In this document: positions 28,914 to 58,987 of the stretch, piece by piece
Layout of the letters: each line of letters begins with the position of its first letter
How positions within the stretch are numbered: position 1 is the first letter of the stretch
NCBI GenBank assembly: GCA_009930425.1
Contig: RZYE01000001.1
Location: forward strand, 1-63,537
From: Actinomycetota bacterium
GTDB taxonomy: Bacteria > Actinomycetota > Actinomycetes > Actinomycetales > Actinomycetaceae
Reading direction: 5' to 3'
Length of the DNA: 63,537 bases
Notes under the pieces: generated by a model
The model's input: only the letters and a program-made list of their open reading frames with translations
What the model was told of the DNA's origin: nothing
The model's database searches: none
Translations under genes and position numbers: made by a program

Positions 28914-28917
<4 letters not shown>
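28279..28917 (+). CDS. Double zinc-ribbon - FHA domain protein
   Basis: CGTVVDADEILCPGCG and CPTEWCRRPLLPGATVCDGC are the two ribbons. The FHA core is LELGRE...VSRRHASV...NSANGTFVDD (GR, SxxH, NG). It overlaps both neighbouring genes. Confidence 0.8.
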
Positions 28918-31565
<2,648 letters not shown>

Positions 31566-31574
31566 GAGAATCCG

Positions 31575-39864: not shown

Positions 39865-39943
39865 CGGGACCCCGGAAGCACTCAGCCAAGATCGCCGCCC
39901 TGAGACAATCCGGTTGAGGTGCAGCACCAACCTGGAGACTCAC

Positions 39944-43140: not shown

Positions 43141-45246
43141 TCAGGCAAGCCCGCCATCGAGGCCGACCTGAAGCCGCTGCTCCAGAATCGCCACACGATC
43201 CTCGAAGGAAGCAAACGCCAATTCTGTGCTCAGCGAAAGCACTTCACCGTCCCGGGTGACAACCATCACCTCGGTCTCATCGGGGTTGAAGGCCGCGCCC
43301 CTGATCTCGCTGCCGGTCGGAGAGGTGATCAGTCGGGTCGAGTAGAGCGCAGTGTCGAAGAACCACAACTCCCCGCTTGCCCAGCCTGTCACGAGCACCG
43401 AGTCATCCAAACTCCACGTTGCGGTGCGCACATACGCGAGCTCGCGATCACCGACGGCAAAGATGCGACTGGTCGGCAGTGACGCCGCAGGATCCCGCAG
43501 GAGAGTCGCGCATCCGTAGTAGCCCTGACCGCCTACAAAGAAGCTTCCGTCATCGTGCGAAGACGCCAGCGTTGTGGTGCCAGTCGCACAAACCGAGACC
43601 CCCGTATTGACCCACTCCGGTTCCCCGGAGTCCGGAACGCGCAGTATCGACATCCCGGGAGCGACGGCCAGTATCGATCCGTCCTCGCGGCGCGCCACTG
43701 TGTCCATCCAGAAGGGGAGGACGATCGCCCGCGACCTTCCGGTGTCGAGATCGAATGTCCGGAGCGTGGAGTCACGACAAGGAAAGACCACGGTGGCGTC
43801 CTCGCCGGGGACGATCGACATGGGCATGCAGTCCTCGACAGGCCACGACCGCTCCAAGGTTCCGTCCAGCCCGACCACCGAGAGCGTACCGGCCCCGTTC
43901 TCGTCCACTCCGCCAACCACCCAATGCTCGTGCGCCCAGGCGACCTCATAGGCGTGGGCCACGCCAGGCAAGGGTTGCGGCGCCTCGACGTCTCTGCCCA
44001 CGATCAGGGTGTAAGTCCCCTCACGGCCCACGGCGAGGACACGTGAGCCGTCCGGGCTGGCGGCGAGGTCCATGTACCACGAACCGGTCAGGGCGAGGGG
44101 TTCGCCCTCGAGACGCCATCGAGCGGTGATCGCGCCGGCTGTGGCCTCGACAGTACTCGCGTCCGCCCATCGCAGGGAGTCGACAGCGCCGTCCAGGCCA
44201 CGCAACACCGTGATCGTGGTCCCTTGCGGGAGCCGGATCACCGAGACGCCCCCAGAGTCCGCGACGGCGAGACGGTCGCCGTCAACGGACACGGCGAGCG
44301 CAGTTACCGCCCCGCGAGCACGGATCGTAGTGAGACCTGCCGCGTCGCTGACCCGCACGGCGTGCGTGACGGCGTCATAGGACGCGGCAATTGACCCCTG
44401 CGAGATCTGGGCACCGTCAGGCAAGGGCTCAGCTGGCCGCGGTGGACTGCCGACAGGGTTGTCGATCGAGAAGGGCAGGTTCGTCTCCAGTCCCAACCTG
44501 AGCGCTTCCGCCATAGCCCAGGAACTGCCACGTTCCCGCGCGCTTGCGATGATCTCCTCCAGAGCCGGGTAAGGATCGCGAGCAAGATCGCCCATGACCG
44601 CGGACGGCACCGCCAACTCAGCAGCTCGCTCCTGGTCATGGACGTCCAGCTCATCCTGCAAGTCTCGCCCCACGTCGAATCCGACGTAGAGAAGCCACGT
44701 GAAGAGAGCAGCGATACCTCGCCGCAACCGAACCCGATTCGTGGCTCGCCTGCCCTGGAGGACGAAGTCCTTGGCAAGATCATCCAGCCCCGTGCCCTCC
44801 TGCGCGAGCGCACGGTAGACGCGCAGCACGCGCCCGGTCGGGAGGTGATGTCGCTGTCTCCCGGCGGACTGCCACCTGAAGCTGTCCCCAAGCAGTTGCG
44901 CGCGCATCATCTCGGCAGCGGTCAGCTGCTCATAGCGGTGCCGAATCCTCTCCTGCCAGTCATCCGGGGTCGTGGAATCGAGGTAGACGATTTCCTTGCC
45001 GAGCTCGCGCGCAAGCTGGAATTCCTTCTGACAGTTCGGGGACCCACGCCATGCTGGCGAGTCGACCACCAGCACGAGTTCGGCCTGTCTCACCGCCTTG
45101 GTGATCTCGTCGAACCACGGGACGGAGACTGGGATGGACGTCTGGTCGAGCCAAGGATCCAGGCCGACAGAACGAAGCCAATCGACTAGCGGAACAGCGA
45201 GTTCATGGTCGGTGCGCGAGTATGAGATGAAGACCGGGTTGGACAT
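43141..45246 (-). CDS. TIR domain - TM - beta-propeller receptor-like membrane protein
   Basis: VFISYSRTDHELAVPLVDWLRSVGLDPWLDQ...LVLVVDSPAWRGSPNCQKEF is the TIR domain. The TM region is RRATNRVRLRRGIAALFTWLLYVGF. Propeller repeats include AVSVDGDRLAVADSGGVSVIRL and ASPDGSRVLAVGREGTYTLI. The start overlaps the upstream stop (TGATG). Confidence 0.85.
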   Translation of the reverse strand: MSNPVFISYSRTDHELAVPLVDWLRSVGLDPWLDQTSIPVSVPWFDEITKAVRQAELVLVVDSPAWRGSPNCQKEFQLARELGKEIVYLDSTTPDDWQERIRHRYEQLTAAEMMRAQLLGDSFRWQSAGRQRHHLPTGRVLRVYRALAQEGTGLDDLAKDFVLQGRRATNRVRLRRGIAALFTWLLYVGFDVGRDLQDELDVHDQERAAELAVPSAVMGDLARDPYPALEEIIASARERGSSWAMAEALRLGLETNLPFSIDNPVGSPPRPAEPLPDGAQISQGSIAASYDAVTHAVRVSDAAGLTTIRARGAVTALAVSVDGDRLAVADSGGVSVIRLPQGTTITVLRGLDGAVDSLRWADASTVEATAGAITARWRLEGEPLALTGSWYMDLAASPDGSRVLAVGREGTYTLIVGRDVEAPQPLPGVAHAYEVAWAHEHWVVGGVDENGAGTLSVVGLDGTLERSWPVEDCMPMSIVPGEDATVVFPCRDSTLRTFDLDTGRSRAIVLPFWMDTVARREDGSILAVAPGMSILRVPDSGEPEWVNTGVSVCATGTTTLASSHDDGSFFVGGQGYYGCATLLRDPAASLPTSRIFAVGDRELAYVRTATWSLDDSVLVTGWASGELWFFDTALYSTRLITSPTGSEIRGAAFNPDETEVMVVTRDGEVLSLSTELAFASFEDRVAILEQRLQVGLDGGLA

Positions 45247-47510
45247 CAGCCGTCCTCACAGATGGAGACCCCGAGTTCCGTCAGGATTCGTGCGGGGATT
45301 GGTACTCCGATGTCCTCGGGGTAACAGGCCAGCTGTCGTTCAGTGACCGCGGCCACCAGAGCGCCAAGATTCTCTGAGCAACCTTGACAGAAGGGGACCT
45401 CCCACGTTGCGGTTGTCGTCGTTATCGTCGCCCTTCCACCCGTCAGCGCGATGTTGACCACCGGAGACTGATCTGGCGCCGTCCACCGTGCCGTGCTTCG
45501 CAGACTCCCGTCATCGTGCACGTCGGCGACAACTACGTCGCCCGCCGTGGTCCCTACCGCCACCGCGTCACTCGTCGCCGTCACCGCCACGGCGCTGAGG
45601 TGACCGACGAGACGCAACGCCGTCGGCGTCGACGCAGTGAGTCCCCCGGTGCGCGTATCCGCACCTGATAGGTCCCAAAGGTGCGCCGCCCCGTTCTGTG
45701 TGACTTCGAGTTGCCCCGCCATCGTGATCCGGGCTGCGAGCGGACCACCGACGATCTGGTTCTGTTGCTGGCCAGCGCCATCGGGTCCAGCCACGGGCCT
45801 GATCTCGTCCAGATTCCACAGCGCAAAGTCACTCACGTAGCCACAGACCAGCCAGCGCCCGTCGGGTGAGAGCGTCAGATCCTGCGCCGTGTCCTCCCGG
45901 CACGTCTCCGCCAGGGGAATCCCGCGGATAAGGTCGAACACCCGGGTGTGGTAGCCAACGGGAGTGTAGAGCAACTCGTTGCGGGAGGTGATAGTCATGC
46001 TGGCGAGCAGGTCCGGCACCCGAACGCCGGTCGGCGCGATTTCCGCGCCGTCAGCTGCCGCCCAGAGTTGCCCGTCCGCTCCGTGCACGACAACCCAGCC
46101 GTCTCCTCCCATCGCCGCCGTTGACAGGGGTCCGCTCACATCGGGGAAAGTCCTCAGCGGCACATCTCCCACCATGCTGGACAGCTCGAGCACTCCGTCG
46201 TCACTCCGGCGCAGCATGCGCACGTCACCCTCGACGAAGGCTGTGGCCAGGACCCCGTCATGCTTCTCCCCACCGCTGATCACGTCTTCGCCGAGGTCGA
46301 AGATGCGTACGCCGTCGGCAACCCGGACGACCAGGTGTGTGCCATTCCCGCTGACGTCGACGCCGTGCACTGGGTCGGTAAGACTCAGTTCGGAGCGTTC
46401 ACCGGCACGGACAACCACCACCCGATGTTCGTCGGCAACCACCACCACCTCAGCGCCGTCGGAAGTTGAGAGGTAGTAGCCAGGGGAGTCGAGGATCCTC
46501 TCGTACCTGCTGGTCCTCGTCCGATCAGCGTCGGAGCCCCATAGCACCCCGCCGCCATCGATCCACCTGACGAAACCGTCATCGTCCACCGCGGTGTCGT
46601 TGATTGGCATACCGTCGGGGCTCACCTGGAAGCGGGCGTGCGCCCAAGGGTCCGACAGCATCCCGATCAACTTGTCAACGGTCGATTCGGGGGGAGTATC
46701 GCCGTGTCCCGTCATCACCACGATCAGCGCTGCGAGCTTCACCGCGTTGACAGCGGGTAACCCATCCGCGATGGGCGTGGAGGCGACCAGTTCGAGCTTG
46801 CTGCGGTCCTGTGCATAGCCGATCCAGTCCAGGACAGAGACCGCACCGATAGCAATCCCTATCGCGAAGAAGGCCCGGAAGATCCCGCGGCTGATAGCCC
46901 GTCTAGTCTGTGTCCGTGTTGCTATCCGTGAGGCCGCCATGTACTCGCCGAGGAGCGGGAAAGAGGTGTCTCCCCTGAGATGCCGAAGAGCGTCGACCGA
47001 GTCATGCAACTGGCGCCGGTTACTGATCAGGTCGGCAGCTTGGCGGCCCGCGAGATCCCACCCTTCGGCCCTGGCCACGAGCGCCTGCGCAACCCGGTAG
47101 CTGTGCAGGTCGGTGGAGCAAGCCTCAACCACCAGCTCCAACGCGCTGCGGGGGTCGTCGGCACTCCAGTGAATCCAGTTGAGCGACGCCAGGTCTGCTG
47201 GCACAGCATGGTCGTCCACCTGTGCGGCCAGGACTGGGACAAGGCGCGCGTCCGGGATCTCGGACATCGAGGGCAGCGAGAGTCCCGCGGCCAGAATTGC
47301 GGGCGAAAGCACGACCACCACAGCAGCATCCGAACGCGTCCACTCGCCGTATCTCACGAACACGCCCGCCCGCTGCAGGCCGGCACAGATCGCCAGTCCG
47401 ACGGCTTCGTCGTCGGGATGCGCGATTACACTCACCAAGATCGGGATATCGCCGGTCAGCGACCCCCCGCCCTCAGCCCGCGCACGCGTCCGCTGGGTCA
47501 TGAGGATCAC
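45246..47510 (-). CDS. Degenerate TIR-position N-domain - TM - beta-propeller membrane protein
   Basis: GTG 47510 (or ATG 47501) directly abuts the upstream stop. The N-domain PILVSVIAHPDDEAVGLAICAGLQRAGVFVRYGEW...AVVVVLSP has a flavodoxin/TIR-like strand pattern without the Glu motif. The TM region is RRAISRGIFRAFFAIGIAIGAVSVL. It has C-terminal strand repeats. Confidence 0.75.
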   Translation of the reverse strand: MILMTQRTRARAEGGGSLTGDIPILVSVIAHPDDEAVGLAICAGLQRAGVFVRYGEWTRSDAAVVVVLSPAILAAGLSLPSMSEIPDARLVPVLAAQVDDHAVPADLASLNWIHWSADDPRSALELVVEACSTDLHSYRVAQALVARAEGWDLAGRQAADLISNRRQLHDSVDALRHLRGDTSFPLLGEYMAASRIATRTQTRRAISRGIFRAFFAIGIAIGAVSVLDWIGYAQDRSKLELVASTPIADGLPAVNAVKLAALIVVMTGHGDTPPESTVDKLIGMLSDPWAHARFQVSPDGMPINDTAVDDDGFVRWIDGGGVLWGSDADRTRTSRYERILDSPGYYLSTSDGAEVVVVADEHRVVVVRAGERSELSLTDPVHGVDVSGNGTHLVVRVADGVRIFDLGEDVISGGEKHDGVLATAFVEGDVRMLRRSDDGVLELSSMVGDVPLRTFPDVSGPLSTAAMGGDGWVVVHGADGQLWAAADGAEIAPTGVRVPDLLASMTITSRNELLYTPVGYHTRVFDLIRGIPLAETCREDTAQDLTLSPDGRWLVCGYVSDFALWNLDEIRPVAGPDGAGQQQNQIVGGPLAARITMAGQLEVTQNGAAHLWDLSGADTRTGGLTASTPTALRLVGHLSAVAVTATSDAVAVGTTAGDVVVADVHDDGSLRSTARWTAPDQSPVVNIALTGGRATITTTTATWEVPFCQGCSENLGALVAAVTERQLACYPEDIGVPIPARILTELGVSICEDG

Positions 47511-50174
47511 TCACCGATCCCTGCGTGACTCGACGGGCCGCTCGTGCGGAGTCATCGACACACGCACTGCCACGTCGGTGACCCTCTCGGTCACTGCTAT
47601 CCCATCGCGCCGGGAGGCGCTCACGAACACGTGGTGCTGGGTGGCGACGACGGGCCCCGGATGCATCCCGGCGTCCTCCCCGGCGGCATAGGACTCCCCC
47701 GCCGTGACGATCTCCTCCATGAACGCGTGCGCTGTGAGCGTGTCGCACTCCGCGGGATCGCTGATTCGTGGCACGCGGACGTCACGGCCGGCCAGAGTCA
47801 TTCTCGTGTCCCTGACGAGCTGCGCCAGGTGGCGGCGCCGGGACCGCTCCTGCGGCTCGCCACCCTCGAGCTCCCTGACCAACCTGTCGAGGGGACCGGA
47901 TACGAACCCCAGGTCGCCCACCAACGAGTCCATGTCCTTCACGCTGGTGGCCATCTCCACGAGCGACTGGAGTTCCTCACGCCTCCAGCCCGCGGAGGCA
48001 CCGTGCTCCGCCATCGCGCGCATCAGGTCCCGCTCCTCGATCACCGGCTCGGCGAAGCGGAGGGCTGCGGGCAGGACCGGCAGGCCCAACCCCTCCGCAG
48101 GTTGTTCCCCTGTCCGCGCCTCCAGCACAGACCCCAGCACCCGGCACCACCGTGCGAGGATCGCGTCCACGTTGGTCAGCCGGTTGTAGGCCGTCCACGC
48201 CTCCCGCGCGTTCACCTCGAGCCCGCGCCGGGCCTCCAACAGCCGGCGTCCACGTTCCAGGAACGCCGTGTAGGCCCCGTACAGCCTCATGGCTGCCACC
48301 AGCGCTCCGACCACCAGCACGAGCGCTGCGACCACGAAGCCGAACCACACCGGGATGACCCAGCCCACGGTGTTCGCGAAGAAGTCCTGGACGTGCTCCC
48401 GGGCCCAAGTCCAGAGCGCCAGCAACCCGAGGGCCAGTCCAGCTGCAAGTCCCACCCGACGCCGGAACCGACCCTCGTCGTCACGCAGCGCCTCCGACGG
48501 CGAGTCGGCGCTCCATCCTGTGACGGCGAGTCCGGCACCCACCGGCGCCGTCGCCATCCTCGTCCAGCGCTCCGCGTCGAGGAGTGCGGAGAGCCTGTCC
48601 CCGAGGACGCGCTCCCGGATGCGGTCCAGCAACGACGGCGTCGCCAGCGGTCGTTCCTCGGCTGCCGCGGGATCCTCCGCGAGCTGTGCTGCCGCCGCCG
48701 GCGGATCCATGGCCAGTCCACCGGACTGCTGCTCTCGTGACTCCCTGTCGGTGCGGGCCAGATCCGCACACAACCGCACCGCGGTGCGGGACACCTTGTC
48801 CGGATCGATCGCGAGCGGTGGATCGGCCTCGGCGAGCGCTCGTTGGGCGCGCCGCAGGGCCCGCCTTGCGACGCCGTCGCCCACCAGTGCGGCACTGTGC
48901 CGTCCGTCCGGGGGCAGGGGCGTCGATCCCCGACCCTGTTGTGCGGGCGTCACGCAATCGGGTGGGACGACGACGACCTGTCCACGCTCCCGCGTCGTCG
49001 GGCAACCCAGCGGGAGGCTGCCGCCGTCGACGACGCCGCACGCCGCCTCCGCCAGCGCCTCCCACATACGCTCCGGCGGGACGGTGTCGGTGCCGGCCTC
49101 GTCCTCGGCCTCGTCCAGCGAGGCGCGGATCCGGGCGCGCAACGCGGCGTCCTGCGACGCCCAGTCCGGCAGGTCCGATTCCTCGATCCGGACCTCGCGC
49201 TCGATGCGATACCCCTGATCCTCGGAGTCGAGGGGATGGTTGGCGGTCGCCCAGTGCCGAGCATCCGCAGGTGTGAAGCGGAACAGGCTCTGGACGGCCC
49301 AGGCGGAGAAGGTCGCCACGTTGCGGAGGTGCTGCGTGAGCCGGATCTTCTCCGGGGGCGCGAGCTGATGCGACGGCGGCCGGCGGTAGGCGGCCACGCC
49401 ATCGGCCTCCCCGGTCCACCAGTCGGCCACGGAACTCAGCAGGTCCTCCGCGTCCTCCGACCTCCCGCCCACGAACCGCGGATCCTCGATCTCCGCAGCC
49501 GACCACGTCGGCAGGACCCGGTCGCGGAAGTCCGCCGCCGCCTGGGCCAACCTGTCGCCGCCTCCCACGAGCCGGCTGAACGCGTGCATGTTCCAGACCG
49601 GCTGCTGGTCGGCCTGTTCGAGCCCGTCGACCTGGGCGGCGGTGCCGCCGAGGATCCCCGCGAGCGCTGCTGCCGCATGCATCGCGACGGCGATGCGCGG
49701 CTCCCCCGCGGGGAAGCCCGCATCGGCGAGGGCGGGTGCGGGACGGTCCTCCGGGGTGACGCGGAACTGCTGCCATTCAGGGGGTGCCTCGGGAACGTCC
49801 TGGTCCGCAGCGTCGGTCGGTACGACGAGGTCGACGAACCGGGCGTCACACCCCGCCTTGGGAACGCGCCTCCGGATCCATTCCTTGAGCTCATCCATCG
49901 CACCGGAGTCCGCCCCGTGGGGGGAGTCCCGCACCCACACGACGCGCACGTCGGTGAGGTCGCGCGTGTCGGCGAGTTCGGCGGCGAGCGAGCGTTCCGC
50001 CGGTTCGCGTCCCGGCCCGAGCAGGAGGGCAGGCACGCGAGTCGGATTGGCGATGTCAAGCCCAAGTGAATCGGCGTCGAGCCAGAGCGCGTCACCGATC
50101 AGCCCGGCCGCCGCCCATCCCATTGCGGCCGAGGTGATCTCGGACCGGCCCACCAGGATGACGCGATGCGCCAC
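47511..50174 (-). CDS. Hypothetical 887-aa protein with a central TM hairpin
   Basis: GTG start shares one nt with the upstream TAG. The TM hairpin is VGLAAGLALGLLALWTW ... VIPVWFGFVVAALVLVVGALVAAM. No family recognised. Confidence 0.7.
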   Translation of the reverse strand: MAHRVILVGRSEITSAAMGWAAAGLIGDALWLDADSLGLDIANPTRVPALLLGPGREPAERSLAAELADTRDLTDVRVVWVRDSPHGADSGAMDELKEWIRRRVPKAGCDARFVDLVVPTDAADQDVPEAPPEWQQFRVTPEDRPAPALADAGFPAGEPRIAVAMHAAAALAGILGGTAAQVDGLEQADQQPVWNMHAFSRLVGGGDRLAQAAADFRDRVLPTWSAAEIEDPRFVGGRSEDAEDLLSSVADWWTGEADGVAAYRRPPSHQLAPPEKIRLTQHLRNVATFSAWAVQSLFRFTPADARHWATANHPLDSEDQGYRIEREVRIEESDLPDWASQDAALRARIRASLDEAEDEAGTDTVPPERMWEALAEAACGVVDGGSLPLGCPTTRERGQVVVVPPDCVTPAQQGRGSTPLPPDGRHSAALVGDGVARRALRRAQRALAEADPPLAIDPDKVSRTAVRLCADLARTDRESREQQSGGLAMDPPAAAAQLAEDPAAAEERPLATPSLLDRIRERVLGDRLSALLDAERWTRMATAPVGAGLAVTGWSADSPSEALRDDEGRFRRRVGLAAGLALGLLALWTWAREHVQDFFANTVGWVIPVWFGFVVAALVLVVGALVAAMRLYGAYTAFLERGRRLLEARRGLEVNAREAWTAYNRLTNVDAILARWCRVLGSVLEARTGEQPAEGLGLPVLPAALRFAEPVIEERDLMRAMAEHGASAGWRREELQSLVEMATSVKDMDSLVGDLGFVSGPLDRLVRELEGGEPQERSRRRHLAQLVRDTRMTLAGRDVRVPRISDPAECDTLTAHAFMEEIVTAGESYAAGEDAGMHPGPVVATQHHVFVSASRRDGIAVTERVTDVAVRVSMTPHERPVESRRDR

Positions 50175-53100
50175 TACCTGACCCCGTTTCGCTGCCGCTG
50201 CCGAGCCGCCGCGCGAATGCCGTCCAGCGCTCCAAGGATGTCCTTCGTGAGCTCGAGCGACGGGTTCTTCTGCGCCTCCCGGACCTGGTCGAGGTGCTCC
50301 GGGAGGACGTCCTCCCGGAAGGTCTGCTCGAGGTCGTCGCAGGCCTCCAGCAGCGCAGCAAGGCGCTCCTTGTCCGACGGCAGCAGCGTGAGGATGGCTT
50401 CGTCCTCGTCCCCGAATCCACTCCCCTCCCAGACCCAGCGGGTGACGGCGTTCTTCTTCCCGTCCAGGCCGGCGCCCAGCCGGATCACCTCGCCGAACGG
50501 CTCCAGCGGAGCGAGATCGGTGTTCTGGTAGGCGTCGAGCATCGCGACCGGGAGCGCCTCGAGGAGGTTGCCGACCGCGGCGGCACTGGAGACCGGCCGG
50601 ATGGCGCCGGCACCGATGCTGCCCCAGCTGCCGTCGCTGAGCAGCTGGAGGGCCGGCTCACCACCGTTCTCCACCACCCTGGTCAGGCCGAGGAGGCGCC
50701 CGACGAACCATCCGGCCACGAGTGCACGCCGGGCATTGGGACCGAGCGGAACCCAGTCGGTCAGCGGACGGGTCCGCCGCCACTCCCAGAAGCCGGCGTT
50801 CTGCGTCTGCGCACCCCACTGGCTCACCATCGGCCGCATCACGCTGTCGATCTCGAGCATGTGGTGCGCCGAGTCGAGCAACGTCATCACCTGGACGTGC
50901 TGGCTGGGTTCGGTGGCGTGCTGGATGGTGCTGCCCGGTCCGACGATCTGGGCCGCGACGCCGTTGAGCTGCTGTTCGAGCTGGTTGTCCCCCGCGGGGA
51001 TGTTGAGGGGTGCCATCTTGAACTCGTAGGCGGGGGACGGAAGGCCGTGGACCTTCTGGATCATGGTGGGGTTGAGTGCGACCAGCGGGCTGGAGGCCCG
51101 CAGGGTGGCGGCGAACTGCGCGACGAGCCGACTGCTGCGGTCCTTGCGGACACTCGCCAGGACCGTATCGTCCAACAGGTAGTCGGCGAGGGACTGGCGG
51201 AGGTAACGGCCGATGTACTTCTCGGAGTCGGAGGCCCAGGCCCTGACGCGGTCGTGCAGGTGCGTCATCTTGACCCTGATCAGCAGCTTCGCCCGTGCCG
51301 GCTGCTGCTCCGGCGGACGCGCTTCGGATGCCTTCGGCGACCAGCGCGAGAGGTAGGTGATGACGGGATCCGGGGCGTTGACGGTCACCTCGTCCGGGCC
51401 CATGATGATCTCCGAGACGGCCCGGGAGATGGCGTTGTGGGCCCCTCCAGCGTTCTCCACGGAACGTACGACCACGTCCTCGAAGTCCTGGGGGAAGTGC
51501 TCGATGTCGTCCAGCAGGAACTCGACCGGGCTCGGACGCAGGTACTGCGGCACGCCCTCGTCGCGCGGCCAGATGTCGAGGACGGAGGTCTTGCCCTTCG
51601 GCCGGGCCTCGTCCCGGAGCAACGACTCGGCGTTGCGGAGCTCGTGCAGCCAGGGGACGAGGAGGTTCTTGTGGAGGTCCTCGATCAGCCTCGAGGCGAT
51701 CTCGAAGTTGTCGACGATGAGCGTCCGCCGGATCGTGACCCGCGCGCGCTTGATGATCTCCGAGATCTTGTCGACATCGCCCTCCCGGAGGGTGCGCGGG
51801 AGGGCGGGATCGGGGTTGGGAAGGGTGGCCAGGTTCCGCTCGGCCTCGACGCGCCGCCGCGTCCACTCGGACGCCACGTCGGCGATCGAGCGCTTCACCT
51901 CGTCCACGAGGCGCTCCATGAGGACGATCGTCACCGGGAGCCCGTACTCGGCCATGGTCGCGCGCACCAGCAGCGCCAGCCGGTCCTGGATCTCCGACTG
52001 CCACACCCTGGCCCGCTGCGCTGCGAGGTCTGCCGACCTGCCACGCAGTGCGGTGTGCGCGAGTTGGTCCCGCGTGGACTGCGCCACCGTGAGGCACACC
52101 TCCCCCACGGGGATCCTGCGCCGCGCCTGGTTGCGGATCGAGGCGAGGAGTTCCTCCTGCCACGCCAGGATCTCGGGGCGCAGTTCGTCCCCGGCGTCGA
52201 GCATGGACGTGATGTCGTTGGCGTCCTCCCCGACCTCGTCGAGCCCCGAGGCGTCGAGGAACGTTCCCCACACCTCATCGGCCGACTCGCGCAGCAGGTC
52301 CTCGTCGGAGGACGGGTCTCCGGGTTGGCGCCGTTCGAGGTGACGGTCGAGCAACCGCAGGATCACGAGGCGCTCCAGGCGATGCGTCGCGTAGGTGCGG
52401 AAGATGTCCCGGCCGATCGTGAGGCGCGCGAACCCGAGCGCGCGGAACTGCGCGAGGTCGCGGAAGCCGTCGACGCTGAGCGGAAGGCTGTCCGGCATGC
52501 CTGCCACGTTCTGGCGGGCGTTCCCCTTCATGTAGGCCGTGAGATCGGACTCCAGCGCCTCGTTGGTCGCGACCTCGGCGAGCGCCTGCCCCATCACCTT
52601 GTAAATCTCGTCGGTGTTGCCGAGCGTGATGGATGCGTTCCGCCGCCCCACGAGGAACACGGTCTCCGGACCGGCGTAGTCGACAGCGGGGACAACGCCG
52701 GCGCGCCGGAAGAGCACGTCGCGGGCGTCGGGAGCGTCCTTCGGGCTGCTGATCCACATCGAGTTCGCCAACTCGTTGAGGGCCATGAACGTGTTGGGGG
52801 CGATGCCGGGCTGCAACGCCCCGTTCGCACCCTCGAACACCTCGGGCGTGAAGAGCAACGCCGTCATGTCCGTGATCCCATGCGATCGGAGGATGTCGCA
52901 GACGTCGAGGATCCCACCAGATCCCGAGCCACCGGCGACCGACGAGATCACGTACACCTCGGGTCGCGAGGCCGTCAGCGAGGGGTTCTTGGCCCCGAGG
53001 CGCTCCTGCACGGCGAAGAGCTGCCCGGCCACCTCGGGAGCGCTCGCCGCTGCGACCGCCTGCGCGATGCGGTCGCTGACGGCACGCAGGCTCGCGAGCA

Positions 53101-53491
53101 TCATCACGCGGCCGACCGCCCGGTACTGGCCGGCGCCGTTCCGCACGTTGATCTTCACCTCGTGCGGGAGGTAGGGCCGCCACGAATCCCAGGCGAGGTA
53201 GTGGTCGAGGGAGCCGGCCCCGGTCCGGCCCACGGCGCCGTCGGCGTTCACGTACGTCGAGGACGCGTTGCTCAACGGGAAGTAGTCCGAGTCGGGGAGC
53301 GTGTACGGCAGGTTGCTGTCGATGCCATCGGCCTTGGCCGGCACGTCGATGTGGAGGAACTGCCAACCGGCCGGGAACGGACCCGTCCAGCCTGCTGCGT
53401 CGAGCATCTCGAGGAGCTGGTGCCGGATGACGCGCAGCGTCTTGCCGCCCGAACCTCCCAAGCCGATGAAGACGAAGGGCCTGAATGACAT
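50174..53491 (-). CDS. Tubulin/FtsZ-like GTPase-domain protein (Tubulin_2-like), 1105 aa
   Basis: GAGAGGAA SD. The N-terminal FVFIGLGGSGGKTL is T1-like. VYVISSVAGGSGSGGILDV at about 52913-52936 resembles the tubulin signature GGGTGS/TG. A long helical C-terminal extension follows. Confidence 0.7.
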   Translation of the reverse strand: MSFRPFVFIGLGGSGGKTLRVIRHQLLEMLDAAGWTGPFPAGWQFLHIDVPAKADGIDSNLPYTLPDSDYFPLSNASSTYVNADGAVGRTGAGSLDHYLAWDSWRPYLPHEVKINVRNGAGQYRAVGRVMMLASLRAVSDRIAQAVAAASAPEVAGQLFAVQERLGAKNPSLTASRPEVYVISSVAGGSGSGGILDVCDILRSHGITDMTALLFTPEVFEGANGALQPGIAPNTFMALNELANSMWISSPKDAPDARDVLFRRAGVVPAVDYAGPETVFLVGRRNASITLGNTDEIYKVMGQALAEVATNEALESDLTAYMKGNARQNVAGMPDSLPLSVDGFRDLAQFRALGFARLTIGRDIFRTYATHRLERLVILRLLDRHLERRQPGDPSSDEDLLRESADEVWGTFLDASGLDEVGEDANDITSMLDAGDELRPEILAWQEELLASIRNQARRRIPVGEVCLTVAQSTRDQLAHTALRGRSADLAAQRARVWQSEIQDRLALLVRATMAEYGLPVTIVLMERLVDEVKRSIADVASEWTRRRVEAERNLATLPNPDPALPRTLREGDVDKISEIIKRARVTIRRTLIVDNFEIASRLIEDLHKNLLVPWLHELRNAESLLRDEARPKGKTSVLDIWPRDEGVPQYLRPSPVEFLLDDIEHFPQDFEDVVVRSVENAGGAHNAISRAVSEIIMGPDEVTVNAPDPVITYLSRWSPKASEARPPEQQPARAKLLIRVKMTHLHDRVRAWASDSEKYIGRYLRQSLADYLLDDTVLASVRKDRSSRLVAQFAATLRASSPLVALNPTMIQKVHGLPSPAYEFKMAPLNIPAGDNQLEQQLNGVAAQIVGPGSTIQHATEPSQHVQVMTLLDSAHHMLEIDSVMRPMVSQWGAQTQNAGFWEWRRTRPLTDWVPLGPNARRALVAGWFVGRLLGLTRVVENGGEPALQLLSDGSWGSIGAGAIRPVSSAAAVGNLLEALPVAMLDAYQNTDLAPLEPFGEVIRLGAGLDGKKNAVTRWVWEGSGFGDEDEAILTLLPSDKERLAALLEACDDLEQTFREDVLPEHLDQVREAQKNPSLELTKDILGALDGIRAAARQRQRNGVR

Positions 53492-53503
53492 GCGTGGTTC
53501 CTC

Positions 53504-56059
53504 TCAGAGGTTGAAATCGTCGTCGTAGGACCTGGATTGCGTGGGGGAATCCCAGTCGTCAACGGGGGATGCATCGTCACTGGAGCCCCCGCTTGCGGCC
53601 GTGGACTCGTTGCGCTCGCGGGACTCGTCGACGATCGCGCCCCACGGGAAGGCTCCGCGGACGAAGCGCTCATAGCCGGGATCCGCGATCGCGGTCGAGA
53701 GGAGCACGAGAGTCGCGTGTGGCCTCCTCGGCTGCGACTGCGTGACCGGGACGATCAGCAGCGCGAGAAGCCCGAGGCCCGGCGTGGCCCGTGCCGTGGC
53801 ACCCGATTCACCGGTCCCTGAGTCACTCGTACCCGCCGAGGAGTAGATGAACGTTCCAGCCGGCGCAACGGCCAGGAAACGCGGCACCCCGAACACGCCC
53901 CTGGGAGCACGCGCCACCAGCCTGGCCCCATCGGAATTCGGCACGGTGAATTCCCTGGCGAGCCTGCGGCCCCAGAAGCCCGGCAGGCGGGAGGTCCGGA
54001 ACCCCGCCAGGCTGGCGGTCCGGAAGTCGGCGGCGTTGACGAGGGCATCGGGGCGGTTCGGGATCGGGCTGACGCGCCGTGGCCCCGTCTCGTCGATCTC
54101 CACCGGGAAGGCCATGGTCCGCAGTCCGTGGACGTCGAATCGGGAGGTGAGCCGGTTGGCCAGCCAGATCGCGAGGAGGGGCAGGGCGGAGAGCAGGACC
54201 GAGCCGACGATCAGAGCCCAGAGCAGGATGATGTGAGGTGGGCTGGAGAACCGCCACACCACGGGCAGCTCGTAGGACGCCTCCGCAGGCGGCGCGCCGT
54301 CGACCGACGCACTCACCAACCGGATCGGGATGCTGGCAGAGCCGTTGCCCTCCGTCGGTTCCGGTGCGGTGACCGACACCTCGATGGTGCGGCTCTCCGC
54401 CACGTCGAGGTCGATGCAGCCGGTGGGATAGTCGAGCCCGGTTCCGGCGATCTCGTCCGGCACCTGGACGTCCTGCGCGGGCTCGAGGCAGACCTGGGTC
54501 GGGCCGTCCGGGGAGCCCATGAGTTCGAGCGTCCCGATCGCCGGGGCGGTGCGGACGGCGAGTCCGAGGTCGAGGTGGTCGGCGGGCCGCACCACGGGGA
54601 AGGCGCTGCTCAGCGCCACGGCTGCGCCCTGCTTCAGGACGAGCGGCGTCAGTGCCAGGCCGGAGGCCGTCTCCAGCCGGACCGTCAGCTCGTAGTCGAG
54701 GCGCGCGTCAGTCGGCTCGGGGGTGACGGTCACGGTGGTGCGGCCGGCGGGGAGGTCCAGCTCCGCCGTCGAGAGCCGAGGCGTGCCGTCCGGGCCGACT
54801 GCGGTGGCGCCGGCGGTCACGGAGCCGTAGACGCTCAGGTCAGCGGGGGCGCCCGCGGGATCGACGGCGAGCACCGGGATCCCGCCGGCCATACCCGCCC
54901 GCAGGGTGGGGGCAGCGGAGTCGGCAACCAGGTGCAGGTCGGAGAAGACGCAGTACTCGATGTCCTCGGGTGGCACGGCGACGTCCGGGGTCACGCGCCA
55001 CGTTCCCGCGCCCTCCCCCGGAGGGAAGGCCACGACCATCGAGACGTAGAAGTCGTCGCTGACGGACGTGGTCGAGTACCCGTCCTGGGAGTAGTTGCCG
55101 GAGGCGGGCGCCTGGATCGCGACTCCCGACGGCGTGTCCAGGCGGACGGCGTCGACCTTGCGTGGCGTCATGATCGTGATCCGGACCCGCCGGATGCCGG
55201 GATCGATCGTGGCTCCCAGGCTGCCGGTGGGCGTGCAGCCCTCCACGAGGTTGCTGACCTGGCCGAGGAGGCGCTTCAACCCGGCGGCGTCGTCCGCGCG
55301 GAGGTAGATTCCGGGCGCCCATCCCTCGGGGATCGGAGAGGTGCCGCAGGTGCGGCCCCCCTCCTCGCCGAGGACCATCCACGGCAGCGTGGTCGGCACG
55401 GGCAGGCCCGTCTGCGTCAGCTGGAGGCCGACGACGACTATCCCCTCCTCGCGGAAGCGGTCGACGATCCCGCCGGGAGCGCACATGCGGGCACTCGCCA
55501 CGTCGACCCCGGCCGCGTTGTTCTGGAACTCGCCGTCCGTGAACCACAGGACGATGCGGCAGCTGCCGGGGCCACCCCTGTCCGTGATGTCGTTGAACCC
55601 GCCCTCCAGTGCAACCTCGAAGTCCGTGCCGGCGTTCCTCTCCTGTCGAGTCGCCTTCCGCACCGTGTCGATGACCTCCGCGATCTCCTCGCCGGTGTCG
55701 CCGTCGTTGATCCGGGTCCAGTCGAGGACGTCATCGACCCCGCGGTACCCGTGGTCGAAGGCGCTGACTGCCACCTCGACCGCGAGCTCAGAGCCGTCCG
55801 GCCTGCGAAGCTTCGCGAGCTCGGTGATGGCGGTCTGCAGGCCCTCGTATCGGACGTTGTCCGGGTCCGTGACAGCGAGGCTGCCGGAACGATCGAGGAT
55901 GAAGAGGGCGCTCAGCGAGCGCGCCGACTGCATGCAGGCGGCGAGGTACTGCGAACCTGAGACGGTGTTGTTGGGAGGGTCAGCCGTGGCAGCCCCGGGA
56001 AGGAGCATTGAGAGTGCCGCCGCCATGGCGGCGAGCAGGATGGCGAGTAGGCGCCTCAT
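53504..56059 (-). CDS. Secreted vWA-domain protein with a C-terminal TM anchor and cytoplasmic tail
   Basis: I place the start at MRRLLAILLAAMAAALSMLLPGAATA (signal peptide). This ATG overlaps the stop of the upstream small gene. The MIDAS motif is LFILDRSGSLAV (about 55877-55891) plus VLWFTDGEF. A beta-rich middle region is followed by the TM helix HIILLWALIVGSVLLSALPLLAIWL. Confidence 0.8.
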   Translation of the reverse strand: MRRLLAILLAAMAAALSMLLPGAATADPPNNTVSGSQYLAACMQSARSLSALFILDRSGSLAVTDPDNVRYEGLQTAITELAKLRRPDGSELAVEVAVSAFDHGYRGVDDVLDWTRINDGDTGEEIAEVIDTVRKATRQERNAGTDFEVALEGGFNDITDRGGPGSCRIVLWFTDGEFQNNAAGVDVASARMCAPGGIVDRFREEGIVVVGLQLTQTGLPVPTTLPWMVLGEEGGRTCGTSPIPEGWAPGIYLRADDAAGLKRLLGQVSNLVEGCTPTGSLGATIDPGIRRVRITIMTPRKVDAVRLDTPSGVAIQAPASGNYSQDGYSTTSVSDDFYVSMVVAFPPGEGAGTWRVTPDVAVPPEDIEYCVFSDLHLVADSAAPTLRAGMAGGIPVLAVDPAGAPADLSVYGSVTAGATAVGPDGTPRLSTAELDLPAGRTTVTVTPEPTDARLDYELTVRLETASGLALTPLVLKQGAAVALSSAFPVVRPADHLDLGLAVRTAPAIGTLELMGSPDGPTQVCLEPAQDVQVPDEIAGTGLDYPTGCIDLDVAESRTIEVSVTAPEPTEGNGSASIPIRLVSASVDGAPPAEASYELPVVWRFSSPPHIILLWALIVGSVLLSALPLLAIWLANRLTSRFDVHGLRTMAFPVEIDETGPRRVSPIPNRPDALVNAADFRTASLAGFRTSRLPGFWGRRLAREFTVPNSDGARLVARAPRGVFGVPRFLAVAPAGTFIYSSAGTSDSGTGESGATARATPGLGLLALLIVPVTQSQPRRPHATLVLLSTAIADPGYERFVRGAFPWGAIVDESRERNESTAASGGSSDDASPVDDWDSPTQSRSYDDDFNL

Positions 56060-56409
56060 CGGGTCGCCAGCTCCCATGCGATCACGAGGCCGTTCAGCAT
56101 GCACGCCGCGACCATCGCCGCGATCGCGGCCTTCTCCGCCACGCTGGCGCGCGTGACCCCGACGGCGCCCGCCGCCCGCGTCGCGACGACCCCGTTCACG
56201 CGGTGAAGGAACATCAGGACCGATCCGACGACGAGCACGAGGCCGTAGGCGACTGCGCTCCATTCGAATACTCGGAAGGGAGCAACCACGAGCGCCCCGG
56301 CGCTGAGCAGGAGCACGACGAGGATCGGCCATTGCGGCTGCCGGACCGCCGAGAGGGTGGAGGTCGGGCCGTGGTCGAGGAAATCGGCGTCGAAGGTCCT
56401 CTGGCTCAT
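56056..56409 (-). CDS. Small (117 aa) three-TM membrane protein
   Basis: Hydrophobic segments are WPILVVLLLSAGALVVAPF, AVAYGLVLVVGSVLMFL and AAIAAMVAACMLNGLVIAW. It is the first gene of the minus-strand operon. Confidence 0.6.
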   Translation of the reverse strand: MSQRTFDADFLDHGPTSTLSAVRQPQWPILVVLLLSAGALVVAPFRVFEWSAVAYGLVLVVGSVLMFLHRVNGVVATRAAGAVGVTRASVAEKAAIAAMVAACMLNGLVIAWELATR

Positions 56410-56693
56410 CTGCGGCGCCTCCCTGCCCCGTCAATCGCCGGCGAATATCGCCTCCGGATTCAGGGCGAACCTATCGAGTACCACCCTGCCCGCGGGAAAT
56501 CGTCTCAACAGGTGCGACGGCAACCCCGGGGCCAAAGGCCCACATCGCCGGATCCGTGCCACGCTTGAATCTGGTGGGAGACTGCCGTGGAATCGCAACA
56601 TTTCACGTCAGACCGAATTCGCTCGGACGATATGGGCTGCGCAGCCGGCGCCCCCTGAGCGCCAGTTCCGGCGGACCAGGACGGGGACAGTCG

Positions 56694-58985: not shown

Positions 58986-58987
58986 TC

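What the first reader, a model, noticed from the sequence alone, without database searches (positions are those of the whole stretch)
43141..56409. Six-gene coupled operon: tubulin/FtsZ-like GTPase, secreted vWA protein, large unknown, and two TM-beta-propeller (TIR) receptors
Seen: six minus-strand genes have almost no intergenic space. Junctions are an ATGA overlap at 56056-56059, a 12-nt gap with a GAGAGGAA SD before 53491, TAGTG at 50172-50176, stop and start abutting at 47510/47511, and TGATG at 45244-45248. Gene order is: a 3-TM peptide; a signal-peptide vWA protein (MIDAS DRSGS) with a C-terminal TM and tail; a 1105-aa protein with GLGGSGGKT and AGGSGSGG (tubulin T1/T4-like); an 887-aa unknown with a TM hairpin; an N-domain-TM-propeller protein; a TIR-TM-propeller protein. 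Established: GGGTGS/TG is the tubulin/FtsZ nucleotide-binding signature. A prokaryotic Tubulin_2 Pfam family exists, but I know of no experimentally defined role for it. TIR domains are NAD+-consuming immune effectors. vWA MIDAS domains capture ligands. Inference: predicted topology places the vWA domain and both propellers outside the membrane, and the GTPase and TIR inside. That suggests an envelope-spanning sensor coupled to a possibly polymerising GTPase with an NADase output. I do not recognise this as a named defence system.
Basis: partly seen in the sequence, partly recalled or inferred. Interest (0 to 1): 0.85.

Follow-up and report, generated by a model that had tools for sequence, protein, structure and literature searches.

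The report
Tubulin-like/vWA operon with captured TIR receptors
The six tightly packed genes are real, but they are two modules joined together: a widespread, never-tested actinobacterial membrane module built around a tubulin/FtsZ-like GTPase and a surface vWA protein, plus a separate pair of membrane TIR "receptor-like" genes that also occurs on its own elsewhere.

Summary
Six minus-strand genes (56409-43141) have the stated junctions and domain content. The 1105-aa protein is a clear Pfam Tubulin_2 member. Its confident AlphaFold model matches only FtsZ, CetZ, tubulin and TubZ.

g1-g4 (small TM protein, secreted vWA-TM-tail protein, Tubulin_2 protein, 887-aa TM-hairpin protein) form a conserved core. 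The vWA gene precedes the Tubulin_2 gene in at least 72 of 80 species loci. A g4-family gene follows it in 74 of 92 loci. None of those 80 loci has g5, g6 or any TIR gene.

This core is the FtsZl1-vWA operon of Makarova and Koonin (2010). It is also close to the tubulin-vWA conflict systems of Kaur et al. (2020). I found no experimental study of it.

g5-g6 is an autonomous pair of distant paralogues. It occurs without any Tubulin_2 gene on three other contigs and as a second pair in this window (596-5879). It is fused behind g4 here and in one relative. There g6 is 92% identical while the core is about 65% identical, which suggests recent cassette exchange.

The locus lies in a TIR/STAND/SLATT-rich island. 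A conflict role is plausible but unproven.

The parts
56410..56555 (.). Divergent intergenic region between g1 and the upstream RyR/PGDYG gene. It is the presumed promoter and 5' leader of the operon.
   Evidence: DNA homology to the relatives L081 and L092 starts at window 56518, about 109 nt upstream of the g1 ATG. The sigma-70 pattern scan found nothing useful in this high-GC DNA.
56056..56409 (-). g1: 117-aa small membrane protein with three hydrophobic segments. It is the first gene of the core.
   Evidence: ORF and ATGA overlap with g2. TM segments at 29-47, 50-68 and 94-112. Homologues of 32-39% identity sit directly upstream of the vWA gene in L001, L002, L004 and L005, and by blastp in L087. 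Database gene calls show a 117-134 aa gene at this position in L081, L084, L087, L088, L090, L091 and L092. No Pfam family.
53504..56059 (-). g2: 851-aa signal peptide, extracytoplasmic vWA (MIDAS DRSGS), beta-rich region, single TM, then a cytoplasmic tail of about 220 aa.
   Evidence: VWA_2 at E=2.8e-4, below cut-off. Signal-like N-terminus and TM at 610-628. A family member lies directly upstream of the Tubulin_2 gene in at least 72 of 80 loci. DxSxS is present in 70 of 74 members, and almost all have a C-terminal TM followed by a tail, typically 160-300 aa.
50174..53491 (-). g3: 1105-aa FtsZl1/Tubulin_2 protein. It has an N-terminal FtsZ/tubulin-like GTP-binding domain (about 1-375), long helices (about 380-630) and an alpha/beta C-terminal region.
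   Evidence: Tubulin_2 at E=1.8e-39. More than 400 full-length homologues were found, and all 120 listed carry PF13809. Invariant loop residues in 116 sequences include G119, A120, Q122, G127, R128 and S184, G187, G188, G190, G192. The AF2 model has pLDDT 94.5 and pTM 0.89. The top 50 Foldseek PDB hits are all FtsZ, CetZ, tubulin or TubZ. In the viral library the top hits are phage FtsZ and tubulin.
47511..50174 (-). g4: 887-aa protein with a large cytoplasmic N-region, a TM hairpin and a cytoplasmic C-region. It is the third conserved core partner and has no Pfam family.
   Evidence: An iterated local HMM finds a family member immediately downstream of the Tubulin_2 gene in 74 of 92 loci. No Pfam hit in 28 members. 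Not homologous to g3 by hhalign. The AF2 model is unusable, pLDDT 42.6.
45246..47510 (-). g5: 754 aa. N-domain of unknown type, helical linker, single TM, and a beta-propeller-like region with 6 invariant Cys. It is the non-TIR partner of the pair.
   Evidence: TM at 210-226 after RTQTRRAISR. Orthologues: 74% in L093, 45% in L097, 29% in L100 and 34% in L101, always directly upstream of a g6 homologue. It is a distant paralogue of g6: hhalign probability 93%, E=3e-7 over linker, TM and first blades. The N-domain is not significantly TIR. Invariant Cys at 537, 556, 708, 711, 729 and 751.
43141..45246 (-). g6: 701 aa. N-terminal TIR, helical linker, single TM, and a beta-propeller-like region with 4 invariant Cys.
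   Evidence: TIR_2 at E=3.6e-17. E75 in CQKEF aligns with the Glu of CWDELE in the Cat1 TIR, entry 9mud. About half of the 150 best-scoring representatives in the 1.84-billion-protein library are full-length relatives of about 680-745 aa, and 44 proteins score E<=1e-30. Position-conserved TM after an Arg-rich stretch, and invariant Cys at 473, 490, 553 and 579.
596..5879 (+). A second, paralogous pair in the same window: a 918-aa N-domain-TM-propeller protein (596-3352) and an 844-aa TIR-TM-propeller protein (3345-5879). It is not next to any Tubulin_2 gene.
   Evidence: Pfam shows WD40-type hits in the first protein and TIR_2 at residues 6-88 in the second. g6 against the 844-aa protein: TIR 31% identity, E=4e-11; propeller 26% over 417 aa, E=2e-5. 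No g4-like coding sequence in 1-595.

Best explanation
The locus is a composite of two modules.

(1) g1-g4 is an actinobacterial version of the FtsZl1 (Pfam Tubulin_2)-vWA operon.
- Shown: the four genes are a conserved, co-directional, tightly packed unit.
- Shown: g2 has a signal peptide, a MIDAS vWA domain, one TM and a long tail. g3 has an FtsZ/tubulin-fold nucleotide-binding domain with conserved T1, T3, T4 and T5-type loops, followed by long helices and a C-terminal domain. g4 is anchored by a TM hairpin.
- Inferred: g2 displays the vWA domain outside the membrane. Its cytoplasmic tail, the small protein g1 and g4 hold g3 at the inner face. Ligand capture outside is coupled to GTP-dependent self-association or switching of g3 inside.
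- Inferred from context: the output is most likely directed against invaders or competitors. The supporting context is integrative-element cargo, TIR/STAND/CRISPR neighbours, and recurrent GmrSD_C nuclease and UvrD-HRDC helicase partners.

(2) g5-g6 is an autonomous heteromeric pair of single-pass membrane proteins with a Toll-like-receptor-like layout.
- Each has a propeller outside, one TM, and a cytoplasmic TIR (g6) or a degenerate N-domain (g5).
- Inferred: binding of an outside ligand clusters the pair and switches on the TIR NADase.
- The pair has its own distribution. It was captured at the 3' end of the core operon in this lineage, so it is co-transcribed with the core but not required by it.
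For: Core conservation:
- The vWA gene is upstream of Tubulin_2 in at least 72 of 80 species loci.
- A g4-family gene is downstream in 74 of 92 loci.
- g1-like genes are at the same position.

Tubulin identity.

vWA family traits.

In about half of the loci the operon ends right after g4.

Autonomy of the pair:
- No g5, g6 or TIR gene in the 80 loci.
- Stand-alone pairs in L097, L100 and L101, with 257-480 nt of non-coding DNA upstream and, in L101, a divergent gene beyond it.
- A second pair at window 596-5879.
- g5 and g6 families are paralogues.

Different history of the pair:
- Identity to L093 is 65.5% for g4, 74% for g5 and 92% for g6.
- DNA identity rises from about 0.70 to 0.96 and stops at the g6 stop codon.
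- GC3 is 0.76 for g5 and g6 against 0.85-0.92 for g3 and g4.

Conflict context:
- The window also holds two TIR-NB-ARC-TPR genes, a SLATT gene, a WD40 protein, a STAND NTPase and two further TIR genes.
- Relatives carry TIR-STAND/NUDIX/TIR next to FtsK/SpoIIIE (L084), a STAND-like ATPase (L087), Cmr genes (L091), and a TIR-propeller plus a small TIR (L092).
- GmrSD_C nuclease genes occur in 15 loci and UvrD(-HRDC) helicases in 8 loci.

Literature: PMC2875224 and PMC7159879.
Against: - No biochemical or genetic datum exists for any component.
- The 0-5 nt g4-g5 junction is kept in two lineages. This could mean real functional coupling rather than mere capture.
- TIR genes of other architectures recur next to the core in the closest clade (L084 and L092). 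This hints that TIR outputs may be preferred partners.
- Some core loci sit in housekeeping, syntenic surroundings: PEPCK and ABC transporter genes in Microbacterium, ribosomal operons in Nesterenkonia, and streamlined Nanopelagicaceae genomes. This fits a cell-biological role as well as a defence role.
- The g6 TM is only marginally hydrophobic in this copy.
- My neighbour statistics use a home-made gene caller and have no background control.
Confidence: 0.6

Rival explanations
1. This is the first reader's model of one integrated six-component machine. The outside vWA and propellers sense a ligand, the tubulin-like GTPase polymerises under the membrane, and this clusters and activates the TIR NADase as the dedicated output.
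For: - All six genes are translationally coupled.
- The g4-g5-g6 arrangement is kept in a relative with about 65% identity.
- TIR genes of other architectures lie just downstream of the core in L084 and L092.
- TIR enzymes are generally activated by oligomerisation (established knowledge; for example the Cat1 filament entries found).
Against: - The core occurs without any TIR gene in all 80 species loci.
- The pair occurs without the core in L097, L100, L101 and at window 596-5879.
- The mosaic identity and lower GC3 of g5 and g6 point to cassette exchange.
- The window holds five TIR proteins, so adjacency is cheap here.
Confidence: 0.2
2. The core is a housekeeping cytoskeletal or membrane-remodelling (vesicle, envelope) apparatus, as Makarova and Koonin proposed. 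The TIR pair and other neighbours are unrelated passengers.
For: - The proposal is in PMC2875224.
- All core partners are membrane proteins.
- Microbacterium loci are syntenic with metabolic flanks, and the Nesterenkonia locus lies between ribosomal operons.
- The core is present in streamlined Nanopelagicaceae.
Against: - The distribution is patchy. In the window's clade the core sits beside FtsK/SpoIIIE element genes, a transposase and conflict genes.
- Nuclease, helicase, TIR and STAND partners recur.
- g4 and the g2 tail evolve fast.
Confidence: 0.15
3. The core is cargo of an integrative/conjugative element and serves the element. Examples would be surface or entry exclusion, mating-pair contact, or handling of extracellular DNA together with secreted GmrSD_C nucleases.
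For: - FtsK/SpoIIIE gene clusters lie immediately upstream in L084 and L087, and one lies in the window at 10229-13243.
- GmrSD_C partners carry Excalibur or trypsin domains, which suggests an extracytoplasmic location.
- UvrD-HRDC helicases recur.
Against: - Most of the 80 loci show no conjugation genes nearby.
- Only two plasmid records, and no phage record, carry a homologue.
Confidence: 0.05

Closest known systems
FtsZl1 (FtsZ-like 1)-vWA operons of Makarova and Koonin 2010, the family now covered by Pfam Tubulin_2 PF13809
   Same: g3 has the family's build: an N-terminal FtsZ-like GTP-binding domain, a long helical middle and a globular C-terminus, about 1100 aa in total, with no FtsZ_C or Tubulin_C domain. 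The adjacent gene encodes a MIDAS-bearing vWA protein with a signal peptide and a TM. The other partners are lineage-specific membrane proteins. PMC9871819 equates these FtsZ-like proteins with Tubulin_2.
   Different: - The protein kinase, P-loop GTPase and OmpA partners noted in that paper are not in this operon.
- Here the conserved third partner is the g4 family, which has no Pfam model.
- A TIR-TM-propeller pair is fused to the 3' end.
Tubulin theme of the GAP1-N2 / DO-GTPase conflict systems (Kaur, Burroughs, Iyer, Aravind 2020, eLife)
   Same: The actinobacterial version has a single tubulin fused to a C-terminal helical domain and a membrane-bound vWA protein with a beta-strand-rich region. 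HRDC-bearing proteins are nearby. The authors propose NTP-dependent assembly acting as a threshold switch in biological conflict.
   Different: - No DO-GTPase and no GAP1 protein is present in the operon or its flanks.
- No FNIII-HRDC gene is present in this window.
- The system here is therefore a GTPase-less relative, not a member.
Toll-like receptors and bacterial TIR NADase defence proteins (Thoeris ThsB, TIR-STING, Cat1)
   Same: g6 combines a predicted outside repeat domain, one TM and a cytoplasmic TIR domain that keeps the catalytic-position Glu. It probably works by ligand-driven clustering of TIR domains.
   Different: - The orientation is inverted, with the TIR at the N-terminus.
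- The outside domain is a propeller, not LRRs.
- g6 is paired with a TIR-less paralogue.
- There is no ThsA, STING or CARF partner, and the NCBIfam Thoeris model scores far below its cut-off.
Characterised prokaryotic tubulin relatives (FtsZ, CetZ, TubZ, PhuZ, BtubAB)
   Same: They are the best and only structural matches of the g3 N-domain. The T4 signature is similar (AGGSGSG against [SAG]GGTG[SA]G).
   Different: - Sequence identity is only 10-14%, TM-scores are 0.40-0.47 and RMSD is large.
- There is no canonical C-terminal domain and no recognisable T7 catalytic loop.
- A 700-aa extension follows, and the partners are dedicated membrane proteins.

Membership tests
Pfam Tubulin_2 (PF13809) / FtsZl1 family (g3) | Match to the family HMM above the curated cut-off | tested here: met
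   136.5 bits against a cut-off of 27, E=1.8e-39, residues 7-374. 25 of 25 homologues also match.
Pfam Tubulin_2 (PF13809) / FtsZl1 family (g3) | FtsZ/tubulin fold of the N-terminal domain | tested here: met
   The AF2 model has pLDDT 94.5. All top 50 PDB hits are FtsZ, CetZ, tubulin or TubZ, with E down to 3e-5 and TM-score 0.40-0.47 normalised to the target.
Pfam Tubulin_2 (PF13809) / FtsZl1 family (g3) | Conserved glycine-rich nucleotide-binding loops (T1 and the T4 signature) | tested here: met
   GLGGSGGKT at 10-18 and AGGSGSGG at 186-193. G187, G188, G190 and G192 are invariant, and G10, G12, G13, G15, G16, K17 and T18 are at least 90% conserved in 116 sequences.
Pfam Tubulin_2 (PF13809) / FtsZl1 family (g3) | Architecture: FtsZ-like N-domain, long helical or coiled-coil middle, globular C-terminus, and no FtsZ_C or Tubulin_C domain | tested here: met
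   Model secondary structure shows helices 481-516, 518-556 and 573-629, followed by an alpha/beta region. There are no FtsZ_C or Tubulin_C Pfam hits.
Pfam Tubulin_2 (PF13809) / FtsZl1 family (g3) | GTP binding or hydrolysis, and polymerisation | not testable with these tools
   This needs purified protein. A T7-type catalytic loop could not be identified from the data available here.
FtsZl1-vWA operon (Makarova and Koonin 2010) | Adjacent co-directional gene for a vWA protein with an intact MIDAS motif, often secreted or membrane-bound | tested here: met
   g2 lies directly upstream with a 12-nt gap. It carries DRSGS, a signal peptide and a TM. The pairing holds in at least 72 of 80 loci, and MIDAS is present in 70 of 74 members.
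FtsZl1-vWA operon (Makarova and Koonin 2010) | Frequent extra partners: Ser/Thr kinase, diverged P-loop GTPase, OmpA-family protein | tested here: not met
   None of the six products has such a domain. The nearest Pkinase and PP2C genes are at 28914-32309, outside the operon. The paper describes these partners as frequent, not obligatory.
GAP1-N2 / DO-GTPase tubulin systems (Kaur et al. 2020) | One or two DO-GTPases (TRAFAC P-loop GTPases, often with zinc ribbons) | tested here: not met
   No P-loop GTPase domain is found in the six products or in the flanking genes scanned.
GAP1-N2 / DO-GTPase tubulin systems (Kaur et al. 2020) | GAP1 protein (GAP1-N2, -M and -C domains) | tested here: not met
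   g4 and 27 family members have no Pfam hit of any kind. The library does hold families from the same paper, such as VMAP-M0. I did not confirm that GAP1 models are in it, so this is a soft negative.
GAP1-N2 / DO-GTPase tubulin systems (Kaur et al. 2020) | Tubulin with a C-terminal helical domain plus a membrane-bound vWA protein with a beta-rich region | tested here: met
GAP1-N2 / DO-GTPase tubulin systems (Kaur et al. 2020) | FNIII-HRDC protein in the neighbourhood | tested here: not met
   None in the window. A UvrD-type helicase family, with an HRDC domain confirmed in the two members scanned that carry it, occurs next to the core in 8 other loci.
TIR-domain NADase effectors (g6) | TIR domain above the Pfam cut-off | tested here: met
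   TIR_2 scores 63.4 bits against a cut-off of 28, residues 5-81.
TIR-domain NADase effectors (g6) | Catalytic glutamate | tested here: met
   E75 (CQKEF) aligns with the Glu of CWDELE in the Cat1 TIR, entry 9mud. The neighbouring C72 is invariant in six family members.
TIR-domain NADase effectors (g6) | NAD+ cleavage activity | not testable with these tools
   This needs an enzyme assay.
Thoeris | ThsB-type TIR above the model cut-off, together with a ThsA partner | tested here: not met
   The NCBIfam ThcB4 model scores 37 bits against a cut-off of 220. No SIR2, SLOG or macro-domain partner is in the operon.
Known or candidate defence systems in PADLOC-DB v2 | Any model matching the core proteins | tested here: not met
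   No hit for g1-g4, one insignificant hit for g5, and only generic TIR models for g6.

The most novel reading that the evidence does not exclude
A tubulin-like GTPase forms a GTP-dependent lattice beneath the membrane. The lattice is nucleated by the tails of a ligand-bound surface vWA protein. It gathers Toll-like-receptor-like TIR-TM-propeller heterodimers into an active NADase signalosome. This would be a cytoskeleton-scaffolded innate immune receptor complex in bacteria, with interchangeable effector cassettes (TIR pair, TIR-STAND, secreted nuclease, helicase).
Probability: 0.12. Interest if true: 0.85.

Novelty: new variant of a known kind. Interest (0 to 1): 0.55.

Why it matters
The FtsZl1/Tubulin_2-vWA module has been known from sequence since 2010. 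It is among the most divergent branches of the tubulin/FtsZ superfamily, and I found no experimental study of it.

This work contributes four things:
- It defines a clean four-gene core, including a new conserved partner family (g4).
- It gives a confident structural model of the GTPase.
- It lists the variable partners: TIR proteins, a STAND ATPase, GmrSD_C nucleases and UvrD-HRDC helicases.
- It separates out a second unit, a conserved pair of membrane proteins with a Toll-like-receptor-like layout. That pair is a candidate for sensing outside the cell with an NADase output inside, which is unusual among bacterial TIR systems.

Both units are small enough to transfer into a model actinobacterium and test.

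Tried and rejected
- g4 as a diverged second tubulin (an alpha/beta-tubulin analogy). hhalign of the g4 family against the g3 family gave probability 0.1%. Rejected.
- g4 structure. Only four close homologues could be retrieved, even with a 28-sequence profile. The AF2 model has pLDDT 42.6 and was not searched.
- The weak VMAP-M0 hit in g3 (E=0.07). It appears in only 1 of 25 homologues, so I treat it as chance.
- The g5 N-domain as a TIR. Neither HMM nor hhalign is significant. There is only a short beta-strand match at the equivalent position. Left unassigned.
- g5 against g6 by BLASTP. Nothing was found. The relationship only appears at profile level.
- Profile of the g3 family against PDB sequences. 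No tubulin or FtsZ hit, so no solved relative is detectable by sequence.
- Metagenome scans for g6 and g5. Both were empty.
- Phage and plasmid collections. No phage homologue was found, and only two Rhodococcus megaplasmids carry one.
- Promoter and terminator pattern scan. Uninformative in this high-GC DNA.
- Literature searches for experimental work on FtsZl1 or Tubulin_2, or for a named defence system. None was found.


Full report
**Observation.**
The six minus-strand ORFs and their junctions are exactly as described.
- g1 and g2 overlap by ATGA.
- g2 and g3 are separated by 12 nt, with GAGAGGAA before the g3 ATG.
- g3 and g4 overlap as TAGTG.
- The g4 stop abuts the g5 GTG. An ATG 9 nt further on is an alternative start.
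- g5 and g6 overlap as TGATG.

The DNA is about 69% G+C. All six frames show the expected high third-position G+C. However, g5 and g6 are lower (0.76) than g3 (0.92) and g4 (0.85).

**What the six products are.**
- g3 matches Pfam Tubulin_2 at E=1.8e-39.
- g6 has an N-terminal TIR_2 domain (E=3.6e-17) and weak WD40-type propeller matches.
- g2 matches VWA_2 only weakly (E=2.8e-4, below cut-off).
- g1 and g4 have no Pfam family, and g5 has only a faint propeller hit.
- PADLOC has no model for g1-g5. NCBIfam gives only a far-sub-threshold Thoeris TIR match for g6.
- Hydropathy gives three TM segments in g1. g2 has a signal-like N-terminus plus a TM at 610-628. g4 has a TM hairpin. g5 and g6 each have one TM preceded by an Arg-rich stretch.

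**The tubulin-like protein.**
- More than 400 full-length homologues of about 1100 aa exist. All 120 listed carry PF13809, and the named ones are Actinomycetota.
- In 116 aligned sequences the glycine-rich loops are invariant or nearly so. These are GxGGSGGKT, GAGQxRxxGR, the AGGSGSG tubulin-signature equivalent and PxxFEG.
- An AlphaFold model built on that alignment is very confident, with pLDDT 94.5 and pTM 0.89.
- All top 50 Foldseek hits in the PDB are FtsZ, CetZ, tubulin or TubZ. They cover about 370 columns at 10-14% identity, with TM-score 0.40-0.47 on the target.
- The viral library gives phage FtsZ and tubulin first.
- After residue 375 the model has very long helices and then an alpha/beta region. 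There is no FtsZ_C or Tubulin_C domain.
- A family profile finds no solved relative by sequence.

**The conserved core.**
I fetched 80 species-level loci around g3 relatives.
- tblastn finds a g2 relative immediately upstream in at least 72 of them.
- Detectable g1 and g4 relatives appear in the closest loci.
- No g5 or g6 relative appears in any of them.
- An iterated local HMM shows that the fast-evolving g4 family sits directly downstream of the Tubulin_2 gene in 74 of 92 loci held at that point. Most of the remaining loci are truncated contigs or low-GC loci where my gene caller failed.
- Database gene calls in seven further contigs show the same four genes. They are a 117-134 aa protein, a vWA protein of about 840 aa, Tubulin_2 of about 1110 aa, and an unknown of about 850-900 aa.
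- In about half the loci the operon ends right after g4 with a strand switch.
- The vWA family keeps DxSxS in 70 of 74 members. Almost all have a C-terminal TM followed by a disordered cytoplasmic tail, typically 160-300 aa.
- g4 is not a diverged tubulin. It has no Pfam family in 28 members, and it could not be modelled.

**Prior knowledge.**
- This core is the FtsZl1-vWA operon described computationally by Makarova and Koonin in 2010 (PMC2875224). They proposed a membrane-remodelling machine.
- PMC9871819 equates those proteins with Tubulin_2.
- Kaur et al. 2020 (PMC7159879) placed actinobacterial tubulin plus membrane vWA proteins inside GAP1-N2/DO-GTPase conflict systems.
- The present operon has neither a DO-GTPase nor a GAP1 protein, so it is a relative of those systems, not a member.
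- I found no experimental paper.

**The TIR pair is a separate module.**
- g6 belongs to a sizeable family. About half of the 150 best-scoring representatives are full-length relatives of 680-745 aa, and 44 proteins score E<=1e-30.
- On three unrelated contigs a g6 homologue (45, 38 and 34% identity) is directly preceded by a g5 homologue (45, 29 and 34% identity). The two genes overlap or lie within a few nucleotides of each other.
- Upstream of those pairs lie 257-480 nt of non-coding DNA and, in L101, a divergent gene beyond it. There is no g4 or Tubulin_2 gene.
- The window itself holds a second pair at 596-5879. Its TIR protein is a clear g6 paralogue.
- At profile level g5 and g6 are distant paralogues. 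They share the linker helix, the TM and the first blades (probability 93%, E=3e-7).
- The g5 N-domain cannot be shown to be a TIR.
- E75 of g6 aligns with the catalytic-position Glu of the Cat1 TIR.
- Both families keep an even number of invariant Cys only on the predicted outer side: four in g6 and six in g5. Both keep an Arg-rich stretch before the TM. This fits an N-in, propeller-out topology. The CxxC...C...C set in g5 could instead bind zinc.

**How the pair came to sit here.**
- The same g4-g5-g6 arrangement exists in one relative (L093-L096).
- Against that relative, protein identity is 64% for g3, 65.5% for g4, 74% for g5 and 92% for g6.
- DNA identity climbs from about 0.70 in g4 to 0.93-0.96 in the g6 propeller. 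It ends exactly at the g6 stop.
- Together with the lower GC3, this indicates recent recombination or transfer of the cassette relative to the core.
- A third close relative (L092) has a different downstream set. It includes a 1212-aa TIR-propeller protein and a 132-aa TIR protein.
- A relative with 42% identity (L084) has TIR-STAND, NUDIX and TIR genes.
- TIR genes thus recur near the core in this clade, but in different forms. They are absent from the 80 species loci.

**Context and likely role.**
- The window is a conflict island. It contains TIR-NB-ARC-TPR, SLATT and TIR-NB-ARC-TPR genes at 35963-43066, and a WD40 protein and a STAND NTPase at 58742-63428. It also holds a further TIR gene at 21740-23035 and an FtsK/SpoIIIE gene at 10229-13243.
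- In relatives the core lies beside FtsK/SpoIIIE element genes, a transposase, Cmr genes or a STAND-like ATPase.
- In other genera it is linked to GmrSD_C nuclease genes in 15 loci. Some of these carry Excalibur or trypsin domains and are therefore probably extracytoplasmic.
- It is also linked to a UvrD-type helicase family, some members with an HRDC domain, in 8 loci.
- Against a pure defence reading, Microbacterium loci are syntenic with metabolic flanks. The Nesterenkonia locus lies between ribosomal operons.

**Verdict.**
I favour a composite reading. One part is a surface-to-cytoplasm vWA/tubulin-like module, probably conflict-related. The other is a captured, autonomous Toll-like-receptor-like TIR pair. 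I put this at 0.6.
- The integrated six-part machine is at 0.2.
- A housekeeping remodelling role is at 0.15.
- An element-serving role is at 0.05.

My neighbour counts rest on a simple GC3-based gene caller and have no background control.

Noticed in passing
window 596-3352 (+) and 3345-5879 (+): This is a second two-gene pair with the same build as g5-g6: an N-domain-TM-propeller protein followed by a TIR-TM-propeller protein, with an 8-nt overlap. It has low GC3 (0.73-0.74) and is not next to any Tubulin_2 gene.
   Followed up: yes
window 35963-38914 (+), 38911-39864 (+), 39761-43066 (+): Three adjacent genes encode a TIR-NB-ARC-TPR protein, a SLATT_3+SLATT_1 two-TM effector and a second TIR-NB-ARC-TPR protein. 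They converge on the 3' end of g6 and look like a separate STAND/TIR/pore conflict module.
   Followed up: partly
window 56556-58985 (+); also L081 4406-6808 (-) and L092 1068-3452 (-): An 809-aa RyR + PGDYG domain protein is transcribed divergently from g1. A RyR-domain gene of 794-800 aa sits at the same place in the two closest relatives, and the intergenic DNA is conserved. It may belong to the extended system in this subclade.
   Followed up: partly
window 58742-61105 (+) and 61092-63428 (-): A protein with 13 WD40 repeats lies next to a STAND NTPase (AAA_16, nSTAND1, NACHT) that runs off the window end. These are more conflict-type genes flanking the operon.
   Followed up: no
C-termini of g2 family proteins (window g2 ends ...SYDDDFNL; loci L007-L036 and others): The cytoplasmic tails end in a Pro-rich or disordered stretch and often a terminal aromatic motif, such as PPSVFR, PPSLFDD, LPDFLRDED, SIWDD or DDPYFD. 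From my own knowledge this recalls the FtsZ C-terminal docking peptide (DIPxFLR; Mycobacterium DVPPFMRR). It could be the docking site for g3 or g4.
   Followed up: partly
window 43141-47510 compared with L093 3035-7395: Identity is mosaic. The core is about 70% identical at DNA level. g5 ranges from 65 to 88%. The g6 propeller is 93-96% identical, with homology ending at the g6 stop. This suggests recent cassette recombination or transfer.
   Followed up: yes
loci L008-L010, L012, L016, L024, L025, L031, L041, L042, L047, L049, L056, L060: A GmrSD_C (HNH nuclease) gene recurs beside the vWA/Tubulin_2/g4 core, either upstream or downstream. In L009 it is fused to an Excalibur domain and in L060 to a trypsin domain, which suggests secreted nucleases.
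   Followed up: partly
loci L011, L014, L022, L058 (upstream, divergent) and L068, L071, L073, L075 (downstream): A UvrD-type helicase family recurs next to the core. An HRDC domain was confirmed in L011 and L068 but not in L071. NERD-helicase genes occur in L009 and L026. This echoes the HRDC link noted by Kaur et al. 2020.
   Followed up: partly
L092 12718-13896 (+): In a relative with about 65% identity, a 392-aa gene is coupled to g4 by a 4-nt overlap in place of g5-g6. It encodes an N-terminal alpha/beta domain, a coiled coil and C-terminal TM segments, and has no Pfam family.
   Followed up: no
window 10229-13243 (+), 16362-18482 (+), 25857-27656 (+): An FtsK/SpoIIIE-family protein and two AAA+ ATPases (one ClpB-like) lie upstream in the window. 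Similar FtsK/SpoIIIE clusters sit directly beside the core in L084 and L087. The region may be part of an integrative/conjugative element.
   Followed up: no
window 20883-24485: This stretch has low GC3 (0.65-0.72). It includes a 431-aa TIR_2 protein at 21740-23035 (E=2e-20, 35% identical to the g6 TIR). It is probably another acquired cassette.
   Followed up: no
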